The position numbers and the translations under genes are program-made. A stretch of 35,717 nt of DNA from a virus (Duplodnaviria; Caudoviricetes). Of this stretch, positions 1-35,670 are shown one piece after another. The notes below the pieces were generated by a model. That model was not told where the DNA came from and did no database searches. It was given only the letters and a program-made list of their open reading frames with translations. The first letter of the stretch is position 1. Each line of letters begins with the position of its first letter. The DNA lies in the IMG/VR virus record IMGVR_UViG_3300012942_000089, positions 1-35,717 of that record; one strand, given 5' to 3'.

Positions 1-232
1 ACGAATAATAAAAGCCTCATCCAACGAAAACTCCATTATCGCCGATTTTTTCTCTGGCTCCGGAACCACTGCAGCCGTCGCGGAAAAATTAGGCCGCCGC
101 TGGATCGCCACCGACCTCGGCAAGCCCGCCTGCATGATCACACGCAAACGCCTCATCGACCAAGACGCGAAACCATTTTTGTATCAGGAGATGATAAATG
201 AACCAAACTATTTCCCCCATCACCGAAATTAA
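1..232 (+). CDS. C-terminal part of an N6A/N4C DNA methyltransferase (beta class, type III Mod-like); 5' end outside window
   Basis: Not in the ORF track. Frame starting at nt 2 reads [62 protein letters not shown]..., containing SAM-binding motif I (DFFxGSGTT); stop TAA at 230-232. Confidence 0.88.
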
Positions 233-3188: not shown

Positions 3189-3638
3189 ATGGCTAAAGAA
3201 ACTAACAAAATCGGCAAATTCCATTTTGATATAAACATCCCGGCGGAAGTATTACCAGCAATCAAAAAAGTACTTTTGCCGCTGGATTGGATGTTACCTG
3301 GCTGGGCGCAACATTGCTTTATCCATTATTGTATTGATGATGAGGACGGCCACACGGCCAGCGCTGATGTTAGTTATGAATATCGCTTTATTCACGTCAA
3401 TCTGTATCCGCAGTGGCTAACACTGGATGAGGAATACAGAATTGAAACTTTGGTTCACGAACTAATTCATTCCATGACGATGATTTTGTTTTCATATACA
3501 GAGCAAACCGTGCAGGCGCTTACTAAAGATCAAGAATTGTTAAAAGAAGCAATTTTAGAGGAAATGAAAAACCGGCATGAATCCATGACGCAGGATTTGA
3601 CGTGGGTTATCCGAGGTTTGATGAAGCAACATGGCTAA
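3189..3638 (+). CDS. HExxH zinc metallopeptidase-like protein
   Basis: ETLVHELIHS motif plus a downstream HE; AAGGA RBS. Confidence 0.7.
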   Translation: MAKETNKIGKFHFDINIPAEVLPAIKKVLLPLDWMLPGWAQHCFIHYCIDDEDGHTASADVSYEYRFIHVNLYPQWLTLDEEYRIETLVHELIHSMTMILFSYTEQTVQALTKDQELLKEAILEEMKNRHESMTQDLTWVIRGLMKQHG

Positions 3639-4233
3639 AACAGTAGCATCCGAACTCGCAAAATTATTAGAAGCCCCAGCACTGGATAAACAGTCGTTGG
3701 AGTTTGACGCGCCGCAACTTTGCGCTGTGACGGGCGAAACAATTACGGCTGGTTATCGCATCAAAGATGCCACAACATCCGCCACGAATGAGTTCATGGA
3801 CTTATTCCATGGAACGCCTGATGGATACATCAGTGAGGATGTGGCGCGATTGATGAAAGTCCAGCGCATCGGCAATGTGGCTATTCACAACGACATATTA
3901 CATCGTCCGATGATCTCTAACGAAAGCGCCAAGGATCAAGGCCGCGCGTGCTGGAGTGAATTAGTTGGCGATGAAGAATCCGGCGTCCTCCTGACGCAAA
4001 CTTTGAAGCATAAAATGGATGTTGCGGGATTAGGCAAATATACAAAAGGAGTGAAAGTCTCATTTGACACGAATTATGAAAAAGCCAGAACAAAGCTGGT
4101 GAACATTAAGGGCATATCGAGCAAAGCGAGTATGTGTCCTGTGATCATGGAAGGACACAGCACGGCAATTCAATTCGCGTGGGATGTGGGGATTGGTAAT
4201 TGCACCGGTTGCGGGTTTGGGGCGTTGAGGTAA
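3631..4233 (+). CDS. Chimeric Cas-derived protein: possible Csf1-like N-terminus fused to a Cas6 C-terminal half
   Basis: Ends in ..CPVIMEG..IQFAWDVGIGNCTGCGFGALR, an exact GhGxxxxxGhG Cas6 glycine loop at the C-terminus. N-terminal CAVTGETITAGY..WSELV resembles type IV Csf1 from recall (less certain). Confidence 0.7.
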   Translation: MAKTVASELAKLLEAPALDKQSLEFDAPQLCAVTGETITAGYRIKDATTSATNEFMDLFHGTPDGYISEDVARLMKVQRIGNVAIHNDILHRPMISNESAKDQGRACWSELVGDEESGVLLTQTLKHKMDVAGLGKYTKGVKVSFDTNYEKARTKLVNIKGISSKASMCPVIMEGHSTAIQFAWDVGIGNCTGCGFGALR

Positions 4234-4920: not shown

Positions 4921-5382
4921 ATGAGTGCCAAGGGTCTGAAGGATGAACAAAAATGCTATATTGTGCAAGCACTTGCGCGGTTTGTGTCGCCTTCGGAAGT
5001 TGCGGCGGGTGTAAAACAGGAATATGGCATTGAAGTTTCGATGCAGGCTTTGCAGGTTTATGACCCCACTACTGTAGCGGGGAGGCGCCTAGGCGAGAAA
5101 TACAGCCAGTTATTCAAAGAGACTCGCACGAAGTATTTGGCTGACACAAGTAGCATCGGCATTGCGCAACAAGCGTTCCGTTTAAACAAGCTGCATGAAA
5201 TGGCGATGAATGCTTTGAGCCGAAAGAATTACCAACAGGCGGCGCAATTTATGGAGCAGGCGGCAAAAGAAGTGGGCGGAGCGTATACGAACCGACGAGG
5301 TCACACCAGCAGCGACGGCAGCATGACGCCAACAGCAATACAAATAATTCCTTATGTTAAGCCAGATAGCGATACCGCCTAA
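4921..5382 (+). CDS. terS: Terminase small subunit (DUF2280-like)
   Basis: IVQALA.F..PSEVA..VK.EYG, YDPT, A....EQAAKEVGGAYTNRR pattern; directly upstream of TerL. Confidence 0.85.
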   Translation: MSAKGLKDEQKCYIVQALARFVSPSEVAAGVKQEYGIEVSMQALQVYDPTTVAGRRLGEKYSQLFKETRTKYLADTSSIGIAQQAFRLNKLHEMAMNALSRKNYQQAAQFMEQAAKEVGGAYTNRRGHTSSDGSMTPTAIQIIPYVKPDSDTA

Positions 5383-6604
5383 ATTAGTTCCGGTCTTTGA
5401 TTTTTCAAAGCACTATCGGTATCGTGGCGCTAAAGGAGGTCGCGGGAGCGCTAAGACACGCACATTCGCAAAGATGGCGGCAGTGCGGGCGTGGCAGCTT
5501 TCTATGTGCAAAATGAGCGGCGTTATCCTGTGCGGCCGTGAGTTTATGAACTCGCTGGAAGATTCCAGCATGGCGGAAGTTAAAGCGGCGATAGAAAGTG
5601 AATCGTGGCTGCGTGAACAATACGACATTGGTGAAAAGTACATCCGTACTAAGAATCGGCGTATAGAGTTTGTCTTCGCGGGATTACGGCATAATTTGGA
5701 TAGTATTAAATCCAAGTCACGGATTTTAATAGCGTGGATTGACGAAGCGGAAGCGGTGAGCGAAACGGCGTGGATAAAGCTATTGCCTACTGTGCGTGAG
5801 GAAGGTTCGGAAATTTGGATAACGTGGAACCCGGAGAAAGATGGTTCACCGACTGACAATAGGTTCGTGAAACATCCTCCGGCTAATTCGAATATCGTAG
5901 AGATGAACTATCACGACAATCCTTACTTTCCGGCAACGCTGGAGCAGCAGCGCCAGGACGACCAGAAGCGGATGGATGAAGGTACATACCGATGGACTTG
6001 GGAAGGCGATTATCGCAAAGAAAGTGAAGCTCAAATATTCGCGGGTTGCTATGAAGTGGCAGAGTTTGAGCCAGCGGAAGACTGGACGCTTGTTCAAGGT
6101 TTAGACTGGGGCTTCGCGAACGATCCCACAGCGGCGGGCAGAAGTTACGTGTGGGATAACAAGCTATTCATTAGCCACGAAGCCGTGAAAGTCGGTTTGG
6201 AATTGGACGACACGCCGAAGTTCATCATGGATAGAATCCCGGACTTTGAAAAATGGGAAACGCGGGCAGATTGCGCCAGGCCGGAAAGTATTAGGTATGT
6301 GAATAGACACGGTTTGGCGCGCGTGAGAGCTTGCAAAAAGTGGCCCGGCAGCGTGGAAGATGGGATCGCTCATATCAAAAGCTACGACCGCATTTTTATC
6401 CACCCGCGTTGCGTGGAAACAAAAAAGGAATTCGGATTGTATAGCTATAAGGTAGATCGGCTGAGCGGCGATATAAAGCCTATTCCGGAGGATGCTTATA
6501 ATCATTGCATAGATCAGCTTAGGTATGGGTTGCAGCCGATGGTGAGAATGAGAGAGCAAACCACGCCACAATCCACACGCACTCAAAAGAGGTATTTTAA
6601 CTAA
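5354..6604 (+). CDS. terL: Terminase large subunit, PBSX-like family
   Basis: GGRGSAKT Walker A, WIDEAE Walker B, TWNP, GLDWGF and NHCIDQLRY nuclease motifs. Confidence 0.96.
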   Translation: MLSQIAIPPKLVPVFDFSKHYRYRGAKGGRGSAKTRTFAKMAAVRAWQLSMCKMSGVILCGREFMNSLEDSSMAEVKAAIESESWLREQYDIGEKYIRTKNRRIEFVFAGLRHNLDSIKSKSRILIAWIDEAEAVSETAWIKLLPTVREEGSEIWITWNPEKDGSPTDNRFVKHPPANSNIVEMNYHDNPYFPATLEQQRQDDQKRMDEGTYRWTWEGDYRKESEAQIFAGCYEVAEFEPAEDWTLVQGLDWGFANDPTAAGRSYVWDNKLFISHEAVKVGLELDDTPKFIMDRIPDFEKWETRADCARPESIRYVNRHGLARVRACKKWPGSVEDGIAHIKSYDRIFIHPRCVETKKEFGLYSYKVDRLSGDIKPIPEDAYNHCIDQLRYGLQPMVRMREQTTPQSTRTQKRYFN

Positions 6605-21663: not shown

Positions 21664-23810
21664 GCTATCAAACTCACGGGGCGTTTAATGAAACGCTATT
21701 AGCATTATTCACCGCGTCGGATGGGTATATTTCTTCGCAAATGAAACCATGCTGCGGATGGCGTGATTCGTCAGGCGTAGTTCGTGTCGGAACTTGGCTA
21801 GGCAACTGGCCGGCGGTGGAACGTGCCTGGGCATGGAATACCTGGGGAAAATGGGCGGGAGCGCCGCCTATTCTCTATCAGGCGGAATCATTATCCATTG
21901 TCGGCGCCGATGTTATTCGCGAAGGTAACGACGATGTATTTCACATTGATTCCGGCGCCGCGTTCTCAATAGATTGGTTCAAGCAGATTGTTACGTCATT
22001 AACCGGTGAACGGGATGGAAGGAATGCTGATGTTTCGATCTACAATTGCACTGACGGAAGCATTGTTCGTTCGGTATCATCGCCCACTGTGCCTTTGGCT
22101 CAAGAGCCTTTGCCAGACGGTTCTTATGTGATTTACGTAGAGTATGACGGCGTTCACGAGGGGCTGCGATTGCCGCCAGGCTATTATCGTGATCCGCAAT
22201 ATGACTATACCACTACTGATAGTCGATTATCACATTTTAATCCGGTGGTTTTTGTGGGGGAAATTCCCGCAGACCCAATGAATCCCTTGAATATTCAGCG
22301 GATGCAATTGATCGCTAATAATACACAACAGGATAATCCTGATTATGTAGCGTATGTAACTTACGAGGCGGCGCAAAATGGTGAAGGCTCTGCGATTAAA
22401 TTGCAAGTCGGTTCAGGCTCTTGGGCTATCAGTGAAAGTACTTTTGTCACACCATCACGCGCATTGCACGAATTGGATTTTGATACTTCAGCCACGTTGC
22501 CGGAAGGTGAGTCACCATCCTCATTAGTCCCGGTTTACTTTGATCCATTGGCACATGTCATCAGCTTTGCGCTACACACAAGCGAGGATGGCATCTGGGG
22601 TGGAAAAGTACTTTTAGGCGGCGCGCGTTTTACGGCCAATGGCCCAACACCTGCGCTATGGCAATGGAATGCTGACGGCACTGCAACATTATTGGGTGTA
22701 GCGCAAGAGTCTTGCAAAGACATTTGTGAGCAGGCATTAGCCACCGGGCTCGTCACGGGATTACAGGAATTGCAAGACGGTTCTGTTATCATGTTGACAT
22801 TGTGCAGTCGTCATATTTACGACGCAACTGGATTCTTGCCCGAAGATCGTTTACCGCGGTATCCCGTTTTTAGTGACGGTGAACCCGGTGGACGATGCTT
22901 AACGACCGCGGGCGATGGGATAGGGACACGGGTTATTCAGAACGCTGAGGCGCTAGACAAGCAGCCAGACCCGTTGACACCTTCTTTCTATGACGTTGGA
23001 GTGGATATTCAAGGTGATAAGTTAGTTTATTTCCCAGGCACATTATGCCATTTAGATGGTTCACTGTGGCGGCATCGCGGTCGCTCCTTTGGTGTGCGTT
23101 GTGATGGCGATCCCACTGATGATAAATCGATTGAGCAGATCACGTATTATGATGGGATTTGGAATAAAGCAGCAGCTCCGTGGAATCCGACGCTACTTGT
23201 ATTGCAGCGTGGTGCTTCGGTGAATGGAATAAACCTCACTTTTGGATGGGAACCTTCCAGCGAGACGGCGCAAGTCGTGCGCGATGACGGCAACGCGATA
23301 AAAGTACTTTCCTCCAATTATCGTGTGCGTGGTGGGACGGTGACAAATAATTCGGAATCTCCGAACTTGCAAAGTTACATCATGCCAGCGCAAAAAGTCA
23401 TTCCTGCCGACGGTGACACACCTCAACATCTGCAAACTGGTTGGGCGCTCATTGAAATGGACGGTAATACAACAGCGGTCGTAAACCCTCCGACTGCTCC
23501 TGCTGATGGCCGCAAGTATCGCGTATTAACATTGCCTGCTTATAACCCCATCTATGGTGTGCAAATCCGCGATATGATGAGCGGAAAGTACTTTGAGTCA
23601 GCTAATGCCGATTCTGAGGAAAAAGAAGTGGGCATATGGTTGCGTGTGGATTCCACAGCCGATTTAGATGATTGGGATTCCTTCATTTGGCGGCCACTAC
23701 TCACACAGCCGTTTGTATTGCCCGTGGCGGCTTTAACCAAAGTGGAAATGTTGATTATTTCAAAACCGGATTTTGCTCCGGAACAATTGCCGGGATGGGG
23801 GGCGTTATGA
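21660..23810 (+). CDS. Large tail-module protein (716 aa, beta-rich)
   Basis: ATGA coupling on both sides; long ORF. Confidence 0.7.
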   Translation: MSYQTHGAFNETLLALFTASDGYISSQMKPCCGWRDSSGVVRVGTWLGNWPAVERAWAWNTWGKWAGAPPILYQAESLSIVGADVIREGNDDVFHIDSGAAFSIDWFKQIVTSLTGERDGRNADVSIYNCTDGSIVRSVSSPTVPLAQEPLPDGSYVIYVEYDGVHEGLRLPPGYYRDPQYDYTTTDSRLSHFNPVVFVGEIPADPMNPLNIQRMQLIANNTQQDNPDYVAYVTYEAAQNGEGSAIKLQVGSGSWAISESTFVTPSRALHELDFDTSATLPEGESPSSLVPVYFDPLAHVISFALHTSEDGIWGGKVLLGGARFTANGPTPALWQWNADGTATLLGVAQESCKDICEQALATGLVTGLQELQDGSVIMLTLCSRHIYDATGFLPEDRLPRYPVFSDGEPGGRCLTTAGDGIGTRVIQNAEALDKQPDPLTPSFYDVGVDIQGDKLVYFPGTLCHLDGSLWRHRGRSFGVRCDGDPTDDKSIEQITYYDGIWNKAAAPWNPTLLVLQRGASVNGINLTFGWEPSSETAQVVRDDGNAIKVLSSNYRVRGGTVTNNSESPNLQSYIMPAQKVIPADGDTPQHLQTGWALIEMDGNTTAVVNPPTAPADGRKYRVLTLPAYNPIYGVQIRDMMSGKYFESANADSEEKEVGIWLRVDSTADLDDWDSFIWRPLLTQPFVLPVAALTKVEMLIISKPDFAPEQLPGWGAL

Positions 23811-24877
23811 AGACATGTATTAAATGCGGTTTTAGCTGCGCAAATGGATGTTTATTTGTAACAGTAAACGGCAAGTTGCTTTGCAAGAAATGCGCTGGCG
23901 CAGCGCAAAGGGAAGTACTGGCTGAAATTAACTATACACAGAAAGAATTGGAGCAAAAGGCTATTGAAAAGTGGCAGAATTTAAAGCCGGGCGGCACTGT
24001 CATTGTTAATAATTACGCATCGCTCAAACACGCTATGCGACGTTATGCTGATGCGAATAATTTAGCTATTCAAACGTTGCCAGATAACAAAGCGATGTTC
24101 CAAAAGTCGCTTCGCCCAACGAAATACGGACAAATTGCAGTGCAGAATCATGCTCACGGAATAGGCGATTCGATTACAGCCTTCTACGCCTGTTGTGGCA
24201 TTGCTGACGCGGGTTTTGAAGTGCATTTTTACGATGTTCATACCGACTGGCTGGCGCGCGCATTTTACCCGAACGTGTTTATCCATGACGCCGCTTTTGT
24301 TCCCGTGCCTGACAATGCTATTGATTTGAATGTCCGTTACAACGAACAAATACAACAAAGCTCATGCAGGAAACAGTGGTATTGCGACAATTTTAAATTA
24401 GCAAAAGGGATCAGTGAATTTGATGTTTTGCCGGTTGCACCTGATGTTAATTTGGATATTCGCAATAAGCGAAACGGACAGGATTACGTGGTGATTGCGC
24501 CGTGTTCCAATGATTCCGCACGGTTTTGGGATAAGTCAAAATGGGCGGAGGTTGCAGGTCTATTAAAAGAAAAGGGACTGAGTTGTGTAGCAATCGGTAA
24601 TTCAGATCAAGCTGATTTGATGGCGGATATTTTTAAGCCATGCGGGAATGTGGATCACCTGCACAACGCTTCGCCTGATGAGATAGCAAACTTGATGTTG
24701 CAAAGCCGTGGATTTATTGGTTTGGATTCCGGCATGACGCATTATGCTGGGTTATTGGGTATTAACGCTGTGGGTATTTCTGTGCAGTTCCCGACGTCGT
24801 TGCTGTGGGGGATGACAAGCATCAATGGCTATCGCGCTGATGTGACGGCGATGGAAATTGTGGAGGCTATTTTATGA
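23807..24877 (+). CDS. Glycosyltransferase family 9 (heptosyltransferase-like) with N-terminal Zn-ribbon
   Basis: GIGD, VVIAP......R.W...W, and FIGLDSGMTHYA..LG motifs of GT9; CxxC..CxxC N-terminus; ATGA overlap gives start 23807. Confidence 0.85.
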   Translation: MKTCIKCGFSCANGCLFVTVNGKLLCKKCAGAAQREVLAEINYTQKELEQKAIEKWQNLKPGGTVIVNNYASLKHAMRRYADANNLAIQTLPDNKAMFQKSLRPTKYGQIAVQNHAHGIGDSITAFYACCGIADAGFEVHFYDVHTDWLARAFYPNVFIHDAAFVPVPDNAIDLNVRYNEQIQQSSCRKQWYCDNFKLAKGISEFDVLPVAPDVNLDIRNKRNGQDYVVIAPCSNDSARFWDKSKWAEVAGLLKEKGLSCVAIGNSDQADLMADIFKPCGNVDHLHNASPDEIANLMLQSRGFIGLDSGMTHYAGLLGINAVGISVQFPTSLLWGMTSINGYRADVTAMEIVEAIL

Positions 24878-31539: not shown

Positions 31540-31626
31540 GAAAAAGAAGTTCGCTGTTACGAACGCTTTTATTGTAGCACAGATTTGAGGGGAATAAGAC
31601 CATATTGCCAGCATCGGTAATATGGT
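31540..31626. terminator. Hairpins between convergent operons (probable bidirectional termination)
   Basis: AAAAG-AA-GTTCG..CGAAC-G-CTTTT (about 31541-31570) and ACCATATTGCC..GGTAATATGGT (31599-31626). Confidence 0.5.
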
Positions 31627-31643
31627 TTCATTCTAATTTAGAG

Positions 31644-31871
31644 CTAAGACAGAACGTTTCCTTCATTGTCTTCATCTAAAACTACCATCATATTCTCAAT
31701 CTCCTCTTTTGTGCCAACACTTAACACGGATTGTAATACCCGGGGATAATCATGCCGCTCATAATGAGTTACCAAACCTTCGCCAAAAGTGTCTAACACA
31801 ACATAAATCTCCCCATCGGGTTTGAACCTGAAGCGCGTTCCAAGTGGCAATTCTTTAAATCTTTTAATCAT
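31644..31871 (-). CDS. Hypothetical protein (75 aa)
   Basis: GGAG RBS; ATGA overlap with upstream gene. Confidence 0.7.
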   Translation of the reverse strand: MIKRFKELPLGTRFRFKPDGEIYVVLDTFGEGLVTHYERHDYPRVLQSVLSVGTKEEIENMMVVLDEDNEGNVLS

Positions 31872-32110
31872 GGATTTTCCACATCTCCAAAAGTCAGTCG
31901 CCCTTCCTCAAGCAACAACTGAAAATAATAATCCGATTCTATTTGATAGCTCCATCGTTGCTGACGCTGGCTCCACGTCTTAAACACAATGTATTCATCA
32001 TCAACCACCGCGCGGATATGCACGATGCGGTTATTGATGTTGTTTTCGTTATAAAATATGCGAAGTTTTTTGCCTGGCTGGAGCAGGTCTTTTAGTGAGT
32101 TATCCGCCAT
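31868..32110 (-). CDS. Hypothetical protein (80 aa, MADNSL...)
   Basis: GGAG RBS before ATG 32110; the longer start in the track overlaps the HTH gene. Confidence 0.7.
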   Translation of the reverse strand: MADNSLKDLLQPGKKLRIFYNENNINNRIVHIRAVVDDEYIVFKTWSQRQQRWSYQIESDYYFQLLLEEGRLTFGDVENP

Positions 32111-32130
32111 TTTTCCACATCTCCAAAAGT
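31875..32130. repeat. 20-bp direct repeat TTTTCCACATCTCCAAAAGT at 31875-31894 and 32111-32130
   Basis: Exact match read directly; contains the minus-strand RBS of two consecutive genes. Confidence 0.9.
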
Positions 32131-32285
32131 ACTTTTTGATACGGCTTAATCGGCACCGTCGTGCCTGATTTCCAGCGCCAAACTTGCATTTGGGTGACGC
32201 CAATTTCTTCTGCTAAGGCACGCTGGGATTTGTTTTTTAGGAGGTCGGTTAGGATGGCCGACCAGTCGTTTTCTTGGTTTATCAT
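32100..32285 (-). CDS. Cro/XRE-type HTH protein (Aca-like position)
   Basis: SQRALAEEIGVTQMQVWRWKSG...P HTH motif; TAATG-coupled to the AcrVA2-like gene. Confidence 0.85.
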   Translation of the reverse strand: MINQENDWSAILTDLLKNKSQRALAEEIGVTQMQVWRWKSGTTVPIKPYQKVLLEMWKNGG

Positions 32286-33397
32286 TATTTCACCTTATGT
32301 AATACAGGATCAACAGCATCCCAATTATCAGCATTCACTAATCCAGGTGGTATCCATTTCACGATACGCACAGCCCTTTCAGGATTCTTTCTGATGCCCT
32401 CACCTGTTAAATATGTGTTCCAGTGTGCGCGCCGGATATGCGCGGCTTTTTTGTTGCTACCGCCTGCTCCTTGTCCACCGCCTTCTTTTTGCATCGCCAA
32501 CGCGCCCCGGATTGCAGCGCCGACGCGGTATCCTGTTTCCCACACTACTTCACTGCTGGCGGGAATAAACGTATTATTTCCGCGCTTTTTGAGATACACC
32601 GGCTCTGGATACATTGGCTTATCGCGCTTCCTGTTTTGTAAATCACGGTTGGCACAACACAAATAAGTTACCAATGATACGATGGGCGCTGCCATGCGGT
32701 GGGCTATTTCTTCTAATTTATCTGCTGGCATTTCATCACTTTTAAGATATGATTCCATGATCCCTAATAGTGAAGCGCCCTCTTTTAGATTGATCGGGAC
32801 CGGGGTTAAAAAATCTTCGCCCTTGCTGGTAGCGTCCAGTGTGATGAGAAGACAATGCTGGAATACTTGGTCGCCGTTAGGCGCTATTTGTTCTGGTTGG
32901 AGTTGTGCGAAAAATCCGTGGACATAAAACACGTCGCTGTCATCAGGAAATTCCAGCGGTTCCCCATCCACCGATGTTTCAACGTAAACACACCATTCCG
33001 GCAGATGCTCCAACACCTGCACCGGCAGCACGTCCTCGGCTTTTGTGGAGTTGACGATATAGTCAAATGTTGTAGGGTCGAAACGATAAACGCCCTTTCC
33101 CAGGCTCCAGGCCATGACGGCAAAGGCGTTTATAAAATTTGTGTATTCCTCATTCGTTTTGATTTTACGCCCCGCTAACTGGTCAACCGCCAGCGTTGCC
33201 AGTGGGAACGGCATGAAACACCACAAAGGCCAAAGCACGCCATCGACCATCGTTTTATCATCAAAATCTGGATCATTGGCACGTGCGTCCAACACGGAAT
33301 ACACAGCTTCAAATTCCGCTCGATATTGTTCTTTGATGTAGTAACACCATTGAACCGGGCGAGAGAAGTTTGATTCCAGTTTCATTCGCTTCGACAC
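32285..33397 (-). CDS. acrVA2: AcrVA2/FinQ-family protein (alternative start 33385)
   Basis: Ordered family motifs AW...GVYRFD, LPEWCVYVE, GFFA, YLC, G.RVG..IR, HIRRAHW..Y..G.G, KW.PP..VN, recognised from recall of AcrVA2. Confidence 0.78.
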   Translation of the reverse strand: MSKRMKLESNFSRPVQWCYYIKEQYRAEFEAVYSVLDARANDPDFDDKTMVDGVLWPLWCFMPFPLATLAVDQLAGRKIKTNEEYTNFINAFAVMAWSLGKGVYRFDPTTFDYIVNSTKAEDVLPVQVLEHLPEWCVYVETSVDGEPLEFPDDSDVFYVHGFFAQLQPEQIAPNGDQVFQHCLLITLDATSKGEDFLTPVPINLKEGASLLGIMESYLKSDEMPADKLEEIAHRMAAPIVSLVTYLCCANRDLQNRKRDKPMYPEPVYLKKRGNNTFIPASSEVVWETGYRVGAAIRGALAMQKEGGGQGAGGSNKKAAHIRRAHWNTYLTGEGIRKNPERAVRIVKWIPPGLVNADNWDAVDPVLHKVK

Positions 33398-33846
33398 ACC
33401 ACCCCAAGTTTTTTTAACCCCTCCGCATCAGGCTCAATCCCTTGCCCCTTCTCAGACGCCGCCCAGAACCTCTCCGCCACGTCCAGGACTGCCCATTTCG
33501 CCGCCACGGAAAGAGCTTCAAAGCGTTTAATCAGCTCTTTTCCTTGTTCTACAGATAATCCCTTTTGCGCCGCGGCATTATTCAGATTGGTGTTATCGAC
33601 AATGTTCACACCGATATGCTGGATGTATTCCATGTCTACTAAGACGCCATTGAAGCTATCTAATATCACCTGCCACTCCGCCTCGCTAAAAACGTTTTCC
33701 AGCGCGCGGGTTTCGATTGCCAGAATCCCAAAGGCGCGCTCCGCCTGCGCGCGGATGACCGCACCTAGCGGGACATCTGGATTTGCGCGCGATTCCGCTT
33801 GTTTTTGTAATTCAGTTGCAAGATAAAGAGATGTACGTATTGGCAT
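33382..33846 (-). CDS. Hypothetical protein, possible N-terminal RHH-like regulator
   Basis: AAAGGA RBS before ATG 33846 (MPIRTSLYL...); FSEAEW..I.D..NG and AVLDVAERFW motifs. Confidence 0.7.
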   Translation of the reverse strand: MPIRTSLYLATELQKQAESRANPDVPLGAVIRAQAERAFGILAIETRALENVFSEAEWQVILDSFNGVLVDMEYIQHIGVNIVDNTNLNNAAAQKGLSVEQGKELIKRFEALSVAAKWAVLDVAERFWAASEKGQGIEPDAEGLKKLGVVCRSE

Positions 33847-33905
33847 TACAAAATTCCTTTTCGCGTGGTATTGTATGCGCGCCCCACGGTTGATTGAAAG
33901 TACTT

Positions 33906-34202
33906 TTAGATTTGCTCCAGACTCCAAAAAAAGTCAACTGTATCCTGTGTAATTTCTATCATACAGTTTGTCATCTGATCGATTTTAGATTGGGTTAACT
34001 CCTCTTCTCCAATATCGTTTGATGAACCGTCACCGCTGTTATAAAAGTACTTTCCGTCTTTTTGGGTGACTTCGATCCAACGCCCCTCATCTCCATCATA
34101 ATAAAACGTGACGGCGTCTCCGTTTCCCATGACATCCAAAACGTCCTGGAAGTCCACAATTCCCTTGTTGTCCTCAACCAGCTCTAACTTGAATTCACTC
34201 AT
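33906..34202 (-). CDS. Small acidic protein (98 aa), first gene of leftward operon; Acr-like properties
   Basis: GGAGA RBS before ATG 34202; very Asp/Glu-rich. Confidence 0.75.
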   Translation of the reverse strand: MSEFKLELVEDNKGIVDFQDVLDVMGNGDAVTFYYDGDEGRWIEVTQKDGKYFYNSGDGSSNDIGEEELTQSKIDQMTNCMIEITQDTVDFFWSLEQI

Positions 34203-34300
34203 CTGACTCTCCAAAAAATAAAAATTTGTAAACTTAACTGTGACTCTCCAGAGTCCAGGTCAGCCCTCGTCCGGCTGGCCTGTTTTTGCTTACGTAGATT

Positions 34301-34331
34301 ATTTTACCGCATTGTGTTCATTTGTGAATAC
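34301..34331 (-). promoter_or_regulatory. Candidate promoter and operator of leftward operon
   Basis: Minus strand TTCACA (34328-23), 16 nt, TAAAAT (34306-01); imperfect inverted repeat GTGTTCA-N4-TGAATAC (34314-34331) over the -35; AT-rich upstream. Confidence 0.5.
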
Positions 34332-34453: not shown

Positions 34454-35494
34454 TTAACGCTTCAAAATCCCTGCCAGGGGGCTACTCGCACGGTGCTGGT
34501 TCTCTAAATCGGCGCTTGCCAGTTTCGCGTACGTTTGAACCATTTCCAGCTTTTCATGTCCCAACATCAATTGTAAAGCCAGCAAATTGCCTCCACGTCG
34601 CAAAAACTCAATAGCAAAAGTGTGGCGACAGGTATGAGGTGAAACGCGGACGTCGGTAATTCCCGTCATCGTTTCCAAGCGCTCAAAAAATTGCAAGAGG
34701 CCGGATCGCGTAAGAGGTTTCCGGCTTCCACGCAAGCCGCGATTTCCGGTGAAAAGAAAATCGTCTGGTTTCACATCATCGTCTCGCAAATGCCGCCAAA
34801 TGGCGCGTGTGGCGTCAGTGTCAAAAGGCACGGTTCGCACTTTATCGCCTTTCCCGCGCACAGTCACATTACCTAAATTTTTATTCATTGTCAGATCGCG
34901 CAAACGTATTCCGCAAAGCTCGCTGGCGCGGATTCCGGTGTCAATCATGAGCGACACAATAGCAACGTCGCGGGCGGGCGCTGTGGTGCGCCTGGCGGCG
35001 TCAAGGAGTAGCAAAACGTGGTCTGGTGTGAACGGGCGGACGTTGGGTTTTTTGGGCTTTGGAACGGTAATTCCCTCGACCGGTGAATCTGCCAGGATAC
35101 CTTCGTTGACGAGCCAACGGAAATAGGTTCGCAGATTGATGAAATATACTTCCACAGCACGGACAGAAAGTTGCTTACTGCGACGTGGGTTTCCCCAACG
35201 ACCGGCGGGCAAATTATGAGAATTGGTCAAATACCCAATATAGGCTTTGATGTCGTAGGGAGTTATTTCGGTTTTACTGGTTTCGTTGAGCCACCAAATA
35301 AACCGCTCCAACGCTAAAGTCTTAATCTCAATCGTGCGCGGGGACATGCGATTATACTCCGCGTCAACAATCCAGTCTTTGACGTGATATATAACTTTTT
35401 GTGTTGTGACAGTACTTTCTGGTGCGATACGTTGACCAGCAACGAGGCGAAACGGCTGCCTCTGATTCTTCCAAACAGGCGGTGTAACTTGCAT
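34454..35494 (-). CDS. int: Tyrosine recombinase / phage integrase
   Basis: TGIRASEL (R), GKGDK (K), HTCRH (HxxR), LGH and Y catalytic residues; SAM-like N domain; GGAG RBS supports ATG 35494. Confidence 0.93.
   Translation of the reverse strand: MQVTPPVWKNQRQPFRLVAGQRIAPESTVTTQKVIYHVKDWIVDAEYNRMSPRTIEIKTLALERFIWWLNETSKTEITPYDIKAYIGYLTNSHNLPAGRWGNPRRSKQLSVRAVEVYFINLRTYFRWLVNEGILADSPVEGITVPKPKKPNVRPFTPDHVLLLLDAARRTTAPARDVAIVSLMIDTGIRASELCGIRLRDLTMNKNLGNVTVRGKGDKVRTVPFDTDATRAIWRHLRDDDVKPDDFLFTGNRGLRGSRKPLTRSGLLQFFERLETMTGITDVRVSPHTCRHTFAIEFLRRGGNLLALQLMLGHEKLEMVQTYAKLASADLENQHRASSPLAGILKR

Positions 35495-35596: not shown

Positions 35597-35670
<74 letters not shown>

What the first reader, a model, noticed from the sequence alone, without database searches (positions are those of the whole stretch)
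31644..34331. acr-aca-like anti-defence operon containing an AcrVA2/FinQ homologue
Seen: six leftward genes next to the integrase: 98-aa acidic protein, 154-aa possible regulator, AcrVA2-like protein, coupled HTH, and two 75-80-aa unknowns. Known: AcrVA2 lowers Cas12a by co-translational mRNA destruction, its relative FinQ inhibits F transfer, and acr genes cluster with HTH aca genes. The motif here is AHIRRAHWN rather than the PHIRRGHWH I recall. Inference: the target may not be Cas12a, and the small neighbours are guilt-by-association candidates for new anti-defence proteins.
Basis: partly seen in the sequence, partly recalled or inferred. Interest (0 to 1): 0.75.

Follow-up and report, generated by a model that had tools for sequence, protein, structure and literature searches.

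The report
AcrVA2-like gene under AcrIE10-like repressor
A soil prophage carries a six-gene block with distant relatives of two known anti-CRISPR proteins, AcrVA2 and AcrIE10, a pairing that recurs in unrelated phages; it is likely a self-repressed counter-defence operon that would silence an unknown host gene by destroying its mRNA.

Summary
The six leftward genes are real; the last five overlap by 1-11 bases. The 366-aa gene belongs to the AcrVA2/FinQ family by sequence (E 1.7e-13 to PDB 7CI1) and by fold, and keeps all five residues shown to matter. The pairing recurs: 9 of 68 AcrVA2-carrying viral records have this family, always beside AcrVA2. It is not obligate: 1 of 8 family hits in 1,203 genomes has AcrVA2 next to it. 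The odd motif says little about the target, because AHxRxAHW is a common variant. The HTH gene is not shown to be an Aca. The three small genes have no anti-defence evidence beyond position. The host was not identified, so Cas12a presence is untested. This scan found the same pairing once on other DNA (e1-8995246), and AcrVA2-like and AcrIE10-like genes many times. Verdict: new variant of a known kind, function untested.

The parts
33906..34202 (-). 98-aa acidic orphan (pI 4.05), first gene of the block; candidate cargo by position only
   Evidence: no homologue but itself among 3 candidates; no usable Atlas feature hit; no PDB hit under E 0.4
33382..33846 (-). 154-aa AcrIE10-family protein: predicted N-terminal ribbon-helix-helix plus helical domain; likely repressor of the block
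   Evidence: profile vs PDB E 2.9e-8 to 9.5e-8 over nearly all of AcrIE10; model pLDDT 96.7; Z 9.6, rmsd 2.8, 112 aligned, next hit Z 4.6; Foldseek top four rows AcrIE10, prob 0.99-1.00, E 0.07-0.38
32285..33385 (-). 366-aa AcrVA2/FinQ-family protein with W93, D103, H316, R318, H321 (AcrVA2 W79, D89, H286, R288, H291)
32100..32285 (-). 61-aa Cro/XRE-like HTH, overlapping the AcrVA2-like stop by 1 nt; possible second regulator
   Evidence: Pfam YdaS E 3.8e-5 and HTH_3 E 5e-4, both below curated cut-offs; PHROG repressors E 2e-6; no PDB match at E 0.5
31868..32110 (-). 80-aa unknown phage protein, flanked by an exact 20-bp direct repeat
   Evidence: 3 viral relatives at 38-42% identity, none with AcrVA2- or AcrIE10-like genes in the loci held; phrog_38256 E 0.003
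31644..31871 (-). 75-aa unknown, last gene
   Evidence: no significant match
34301..34328 (-). sigma-70-like promoter candidate (10 of 12 consensus bases)
   Evidence: 10 sites found against 5.9 +/- 2.8 in shuffles, so not significant by itself
34204..34255 (.). 14-bp inverted repeat with 2-nt spacer (34242-34255) and a 10-bp direct repeat whose second copy covers the first ribosome-binding site; candidate operator or leader hairpin
   Evidence: such an inverted repeat arises in 7.1% of 1,000 shuffles, so only a lead
34256..34282 (.). GC-rich hairpin in the predicted leader; also reads as a plus-strand terminator
   Evidence: leader folds with z -2.2, 5 of 200 shuffles as stable
31549..31633 (.). 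terminator-like hairpins between the block and the convergent tail genes
31875..32130 (.). exact 20-bp direct repeat (31875-31894 and 32111-32130) over the ribosome-binding sites of the last two genes
34454..35494 (-). tyrosine integrase, upstream and co-oriented (context)
   Evidence: Pfam PF00589 E 5.5e-33
35597..35670 (-). tRNA-Pro(TGG), likely attachment site (context)

Best explanation
The block carries an AcrVA2/FinQ-family gene overlapping an AcrIE10-family gene and is likely a self-repressed counter-defence operon of a temperate phage, whose AcrVA2-like protein would silence a host defence gene that is probably not cas12a. SHOWN here: operon-like gene packing, membership of both proteins in their families by sequence and predicted fold, retention of the five tested AcrVA2 residues, and recurrent adjacency of the two families in unrelated elements. 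INFERRED from the published relatives: (1) the promoter in front of the 98-aa gene fires on phage entry; (2) the AcrVA2-like protein binds the emerging N-terminal peptide of one target on the ribosome and triggers loss of that mRNA; (3) the 154-aa protein dimerises through its RHH part, binds the promoter region and shuts the operon down in the lysogen; (4) its helical domain may sense a protein ligand, as AcrIE10 senses Cas7, but the essential Cas7-contact glutamate is Asn here, so the ligand may differ. The acidic first gene and the two last genes are exchangeable cargo of unknown activity. My odds: both family assignments about 0.97, conflict-related operon 0.8, 154-aa protein acts as repressor 0.65, target not Cas12a 0.8.
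For: AcrVA2 family: phmmer E 1.7e-13 to 7CI1; Foldseek E 2.9e-16, the only 3 matches at E<=0.001 are AcrVA2 chains; tblastn to annotated FinQ E 1e-8; 103 of 103 homologues carry PF26125. W79, D89, H286, R288, H291, whose mutation weakens AcrVA2, all align to identical residues. AcrIE10 family. AcrIE10 is a proven RHH autorepressor, and its partner is the main inhibitor in its operon. Linkage: 9 of 68 dereplicated AcrVA2-carrying viral records have an AcrIE10-family gene when whole records are searched; all 9 lie within 3 kb of the AcrVA2 match and 8 within 500 bp, against about 1.3 expected within 1 kb. The paired label needs 8 changes on a 68-row tree, at least 4 forced by well-supported branches; paired AcrVA2 proteins are 26-47% identical apart from one pair at 69%. 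Background is low: 8 hits in 1,203 genomes of three phyla, one of them about 30 nt from an AcrVA2-family match.
Against: No activity, expression or binding was measured. Identity to both characterised proteins is only about 18-25%. AcrIE10 E78, essential for Cas7 binding, aligns to N81; E is in only 51 of 132 family members. Foldseek E-values for the 154-aa model are weak (0.07-0.38), and Z 9.6 is within the range a helical bundle can reach by chance, though it stands well above the next hit. No operator overlapping -10/-35 was found; the one inverted repeat is downstream and not significant. 59 of 68 AcrVA2 records lack the AcrIE10 family (many are fragments), and 7 of 8 genome hits of that family lack AcrVA2 within about 1.5 kb, so the link may reflect shared accessory regions and not a functional pair. 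One family member sits right behind a BREX pglZ-brxL operon and FinQ acts on plasmid transfer, so the family is not always anti-defence.
Confidence: 0.55

Rival explanations
1. The operon is a weapon against rival mobile elements, not against host immunity: the AcrVA2-like protein would work like FinQ and silence a transfer or infection gene of a competing plasmid or phage in the lysogen.
For: FinQ lowers F transfer-gene mRNA, and homologues mostly occur without Cas12a. The protein is about equally distant from FinQ (25%) and from the Moraxella phage homologue (25%). Position between tail genes and integrase fits a lysogen-expressed accessory block. 552 of 626 plasmid records with a match are conjugative, mostly enterobacterial FinQ.
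Against: It overlaps a relative of a proven acr-operon repressor. The finQ region and the other three annotated loci fetched show no AcrIE10-family gene.
Confidence: 0.2
2. The 61-aa HTH is the real Aca repressor, and the 154-aa protein acts mainly as a Cas7-binding anti-CRISPR against a type I system.
For: Small HTH genes coupled to acr genes are the classical Aca layout. AcrIE10 contacts Q56, N63 and R116 align to Q59, N66 and R126. One related locus has the order AcrIE10-like, HTH, AcrVA2-like (L013). The leader has a stable hairpin like the RNA sites of Aca1/Aca2.
Against: No match of the HTH to any solved Aca at E 0.5. Only 3 of 68 AcrVA2 loci showed a Pfam HTH, and 1 an RHH, among the 137 flanking ORFs scanned. 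E78 is not kept.
Confidence: 0.15
3. The 366-aa protein is a functional AcrVA2 orthologue that inhibits Cas12a of its host.
For: All five functional residues are kept, including W79, which may take part in Cas12a binding. AcrVA2 acts on divergent Cas12a orthologues.
Against: The sequence match to 7CI1 starts only at residue 92, and AcrVA2 and FinQ diverge near the N-terminus. E98 of the second, dispensable Cas12a site aligns to Lys. Most homologues lie in genomes without Cas12a. Host unknown.
Confidence: 0.1

Closest known systems
AcrVA2 of Moraxella bovoculi prophage (PDB 7CI1/7CI2; bioRxiv 10.1101/2022.11.29.518452)
   Same: Same family and fold; W79, D89, H286, R288, H291 kept; prophage location. 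A Moraxella phage homologue also lies next to attL.
   Different: About 19% identity in the structural alignment; N-terminal 91 residues do not align by sequence; H293 equivalent is Asn; neighbours are an AcrIE10-like gene and unknowns, not acrVA1; target unknown.
[quoted passage not shown]
   Same: Same family (tblastn E 1e-8; 25% over 295 aa).
   Different: Phage, not plasmid; no closer to FinQ than to AcrVA2; has an RHH neighbour.
AcrIE10 and the acrIE9.2-acrIE10 operon of Klebsiella plasmids (PDB 8JI9, 9M71, 9M7T, 9UER; PMC13530269, PMC11317147)
   Same: Same two-part protein along its whole length; encoded inside the operon it would control, next to another Acr-family gene.
   Different: 17-18% identity; about 28 extra C-terminal residues; E78 is Asn; DNA-reading strand differs (R4-T-S6 against R7-N-P-S10); partner is AcrVA2-like, not AcrIE9; phage, not plasmid.
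Aca14 and HTH Aca proteins (bioRxiv 10.64898/2026.07.27.740549)
   Same: RHH or HTH regulators inside anti-defence operons.
   Different: Aca14 is a 66-aa stand-alone RHH found with AcrIF23, AcrIF6 and AcrVA3; the main text never names AcrVA2. The 154-aa protein has the extra AcrIE10 helical domain.

Membership tests
AcrVA2/FinQ family | Sequence homology to AcrVA2 and FinQ | tested here: met
   E 1.7e-13 to 7CI1; E 1e-8 to annotated FinQ; phrog_6160 E 2e-34
AcrVA2/FinQ family | AcrVA2 fold | tested here: met
   model pLDDT 89.5; Foldseek E 2.9e-16, TM 0.54-0.69, rmsd 6.2-6.6
AcrVA2/FinQ family | W79, D89, H286, R288, H291 equivalents | tested here: met
   W93, D103, H316, R318, H321
AcrVA2 proper (Cas12a inhibitor) | Binds the Cas12a LSKT N-terminus and lowers cas12a mRNA | not testable with these tools
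   needs an assay; host genome not available
AcrIE10 family | Full-length homology: N-terminal RHH plus helical Acr domain | tested here: met
   profile E 2.9e-8, positions 5-123 of 147 against residues 18-127 of 8ji9_D; Z 9.6, rmsd 2.8, 112 aligned
AcrIE10 family | E78, essential for Cas7 binding | tested here: not met
   aligns to N81; E in 51 of 132 family members. Lowers 'is a Cas7-binding Acr', not 'works like the AcrIE10 repressor'
AcrIE10 family | Inverted repeat with 2-bp spacer over the promoter | tested here: inconclusive
   one 6+2+6 repeat about 45 nt downstream of the predicted -10; 7.1% of shuffles give one
AcrIE10 family | Autorepression and Cas7 binding | not testable with these tools
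   needs reporter, EMSA and pull-down
HTH Aca repressor (61-aa gene) | HTH domain inside an acr operon | tested here: met
   weak HTH hits below curated cut-offs; 1-nt overlap with the AcrVA2-like gene
HTH Aca repressor (61-aa gene) | Homology to a described Aca family, or recurrence beside AcrVA2 homologues | tested here: inconclusive
   no PDB hit at E 0.5; no clear homologue beside AcrVA2 in the viral loci (best E 0.006 about 4 kb away); no Aca profile library was searched

The most novel reading that the evidence does not exclude
AcrIE10-like plus AcrVA2-like genes form a recurring sensor-and-silencer module: the RHH protein senses a subunit of a host defence complex (Cas7 of a type I system or another ligand), releases the promoter, and the AcrVA2-like protein then destroys the mRNA of that same system during translation. 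That would extend nascent-peptide-guided mRNA destruction beyond Cas12a, name a target class for a family of about 1,800 orphans, and make a family of some 2,500 unnamed clusters a new marker for anti-defence operons.
Probability: 0.17. Interest if true: 0.8.

Novelty: new variant of a known kind. Interest (0 to 1): 0.5.

Why it matters
The targets of almost all AcrVA2/FinQ-family proteins are unknown, and the family is the only described bacterial case of mRNA destruction guided by a nascent peptide. A recurring AcrIE10-like neighbour gives a concrete test: type I CRISPR or whatever ligand its helical domain binds. It also shows AcrIE10 to be one member of a large family (2,498 clusters at 50% identity) that Pfam, PHROGs and NCBIfam do not name, usable as a marker to mine anti-defence cargo outside Enterobacterales. 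Each part is known, nothing is tested, and this scan has met the same pairing once before.

Tried and rejected
So Cas12a, other defence systems and self-targeting spacers could not be inventoried. Complex prediction of the AcrVA2-like with the 154-aa protein gave no verdict (score 0.01). No RNA holder was listed. The palindrome AAAGTACTTT as an Aca operator was rejected: 24 copies lie across the whole window, 19 inside genes. The motif change as a target clue was rejected. PF26125 is not in the local Pfam copy, and Pfam and NCBIfam gave no hit for the 366-aa protein; the label 'AcrVA2-like' for PF26125 comes from earlier findings, not from a library call. Rfam found only the tRNA, so no known RNA family or CRISPR-repeat match at gathering score. 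PADLOC gave nothing for five of the six genes and only weak hits (E>=0.007) for the HTH. A reciprocal viral scan with the deep AcrIE10-family alignment could not run; shallow ones returned only two records, one with AcrVA2 (L013) and one without (L118). tblastn with one family member found 0 of 50,697 phage and 3 of 72,556 plasmid records; it is insensitive and those 3 were not checked for AcrVA2. The careful tree did not finish; quick and FastTree trees were used, and the window's row is a long branch with no supported placement.
Full report
Setting. The window is one viral record of 35,717 bases. It reads left to right as lysis-like genes, terminase, portal, capsid, tape measure and tail fibres on the plus strand, then the six-gene block and a tyrosine integrase on the minus strand, then tRNA-Pro(TGG). 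The only run that holds it is labelled soil metagenome. The block therefore sits in the accessory position between tail genes and the attachment site of a temperate phage (inference).

Observation. All six ORFs are as described. After a 251-nt gap behind the integrase come the 98-aa gene, a 59-nt gap, and five genes that overlap by 4, 1, 11 and 4 nt. A sigma-70-like site lies at 34301-34328 and terminator-like hairpins at 31549-31633; promoter-like sites are not in excess over shuffles. One transcript is inferred, not shown. No minus-strand terminator was called between the integrase and the block, so read-through from the integrase is possible.

The 366-aa gene. phmmer matches AcrVA2 (7CI1) at E 1.7e-13 over residues 92-356 of the 370-aa reading. 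A model from 72 sequences has pLDDT 89.5, and its only three Foldseek matches at E<=0.001 are AcrVA2 chains. tblastn finds annotated FinQ at E 1e-8 and a phage gene annotated AcrVA2 at E 5e-11. In bioRxiv 10.1101/2022.11.29.518452 (parts 1-2 of 4 read: abstract, results, discussion) W79A and D89A weaken AcrVA2 and H286A, R288A and H291A diminish it; all five align to identical residues here. The same paper says homologues are typically found without Cas12a and that AcrVA2 and FinQ diverge near the N-terminus. A 2026 editorial (PMC13728456, passages) adds that AcrVA2 binds ribosomes through its C-terminal part and recruits a cellular enzyme.

The motif. In the 72-row alignment the G position is Ala in 72 of 72; among 78 viral homologues at least 17 start the motif with Ala; only the final Asn is unique. 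The motif is the shared silencing part, so it says little about the target. A changed target is still likely, because identity to the Moraxella phage homologue and to FinQ is about 25% each.

The 154-aa gene. It has no Pfam, PHROG, NCBIfam or PADLOC hit. Four relatives at 55-64% gave a weak profile hit to AcrIE10 (E 0.014). A 7-sequence profile found 2,498 clusters at E<=0.001. A 132-row alignment (126 of the 150 listed hits plus five earlier proteins and the query) matches AcrIE10 along nearly its whole length at E 2.9e-8 to 9.5e-8. The model (pLDDT 96.7) aligns to 8JI9_D with Z 9.6, rmsd 2.8 over 112 residues, next best Z 4.6 among 48,161 chains; Foldseek ranks four AcrIE10 chains first with probability 0.99-1.00 but E 0.07-0.38. 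PMC13530269 (abstract and sections 6-9 and 13 read) shows that AcrIE10 represses its own operon through an N-terminal RHH bound to an inverted repeat with a 2-bp spacer, is released by Cas7, and is the weaker inhibitor in its operon. PMC11317147 (passages) lists the Cas7 contacts and finds E78 essential. Here Q56, N63 and R116 are kept, E68 is Asp, and E78 is Asn. So the repressor role carries over better than the Cas7 role.

Is the pairing more than one accident? A profile scan gave 79 viral loci with AcrVA2 relatives, the best 80 of 151 matches. Removing 11 near-copies at 90% left 68. Whole-record searches found the AcrIE10 family in 9 of 68. All nine lie within 3 kb of the AcrVA2 match, eight within 500 bp, six upstream and three downstream; about 1.3 would fall within 1 kb by uniform placement. 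The chance that all nine fall in the held windows is 4e-6 under that model, which ignores that accessory genes cluster. On a FastTree of 68 rows (L163, 11 near-copies and the named references left out; the window added) the paired label needs 8 changes, at least 4 forced by supported branches, and is no more clustered than shuffles (51 of 500 as low). In the other direction, 1,203 genomes sampled from three phyla gave 2, 6 and 0 AcrIE10-family hits; 1 of these 8 has an AcrVA2-family match about 30 nt downstream. The link is thus recurrent but loose: the RHH family looks like a general regulator of such cassettes, with AcrVA2-like genes as one frequent cargo.

The HTH and the small genes. The 61-aa HTH scores below Pfam cut-offs and matches no solved structure. 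Among 137 ORFs flanking AcrVA2 in the 68 loci, 3 were HTH and 1 RHH by Pfam at E<=0.001; the ORF picking was mechanical and some loci lacked a candidate on one side. The 98-aa protein has no detectable relative. The 80-aa protein has three viral relatives without either Acr family nearby. The 75-aa protein was checked only against family libraries, the PDB and the fetched loci, without result. An exact 20-bp repeat covers the ribosome-binding sites of the last two genes, as if a cassette had been added by recombination (inference).

Operator. The intergenic region holds one 6+2+6 inverted repeat (34242-34255), whose half-site recurs over the first ribosome-binding site. The 2-nt spacer fits AcrIE10, but the site is downstream of the predicted promoter and 7.1% of shuffles contain such a repeat. 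The five nearby AAAGTACTTT palindromes are part of a window-wide excess and are not an operator.

Mechanism and rivals are given in their sections. Nothing here was assayed, and the host, its Cas content and expression are unknown.

Novelty. One paper in the library holds both 'AcrIE10' and 'AcrVA2': the review PMC13131331, of which I saw the AcrVA2 passages, none linking the two. The Aca survey (10.64898/2026.07.27.740549; parts 1-2 of 7 and passages) does not name AcrVA2. The census 10.1101/2025.05.07.652737 (passages) links AcrIE10 to AcrIE9 in Enterobacterales. PMC10846135 (passages) reports another untested phage AcrVA2 homologue. No supplements were opened; those of the three preprints are closed and could list such pairs. 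The journal version of the AcrVA2 paper was not seen. Within this scan, 101 findings mention AcrVA2, 13 AcrIE10 and 1 both; I reached the AcrIE10 assignment before those look-ups.

Verdict. A real operon-like block with two known anti-CRISPR families in an arrangement not found in the papers searched; new variant of a known kind; interest 0.5.

Noticed in passing
window, 24 sites from 1388 to 34445: The 10-bp palindrome AAAGTACTTT occurs 24 times against about 0.04 expected (AGTACT 34 against about 3), while most other palindromes are depleted. 19 copies lie in genes, in all three frames (12/4/3). A second phage fragment, L254, with no detectable protein match to the window, has 14 copies in 15 kb. 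A paired-motif scan of GTDB gave 96 stretches; the five genomes checked had 6-29 copies each, far below this density. It resembles cyanobacterial HIP1 (recalled); this scan noted an AGTACT excess in jumbo phages. None of 10 listed papers addressed it by title or abstract start. Worth its own follow-up.
   Followed up: partly
window 3631-4233 (+): 200-aa ORF whose C-terminal 88 residues match the C-terminal half of Cas6b (PADLOC E 2.7e-33, Pfam Cas6_C above cut-off). The N-terminal half is unmatched and recalls a type IV Csf1/Cas8 N-terminus (from memory, untested). Possibly an in-frame remnant of a phage-borne cas operon or a Cas-derived decoy.
   Followed up: partly
window 1-229 (+): C-terminal stub of an adenine-type DNA methyltransferase, cut by the window start (E 2e-9); could bear on the palindrome excess.
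   Followed up: partly
L263:565-4041: An AcrVA2-family gene lies directly behind pglZ-brxL of a BREX system on a Thioflavicoccus plasmid, a defence and not an anti-defence setting.
   Followed up: no
L163:4559-7370: Two convergent AcrVA2-family matches in one viral locus.
   Followed up: no
L118:5980-8093: An AcrIE10-family gene overlaps a 570-aa ORF that looks TnpB-like by its C-terminal cysteine motifs (by eye); no AcrVA2 in that record.
   Followed up: no
window 23672-24877 (+): Glycosyltransferase family 9 domain among the tail genes (E 4e-10).
   Followed up: no
window 5354-6604 (+): Terminase is 60-62% identical to terminases of 40-50% GC phages that lack the palindrome, a sign of module exchange.
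   Followed up: partly
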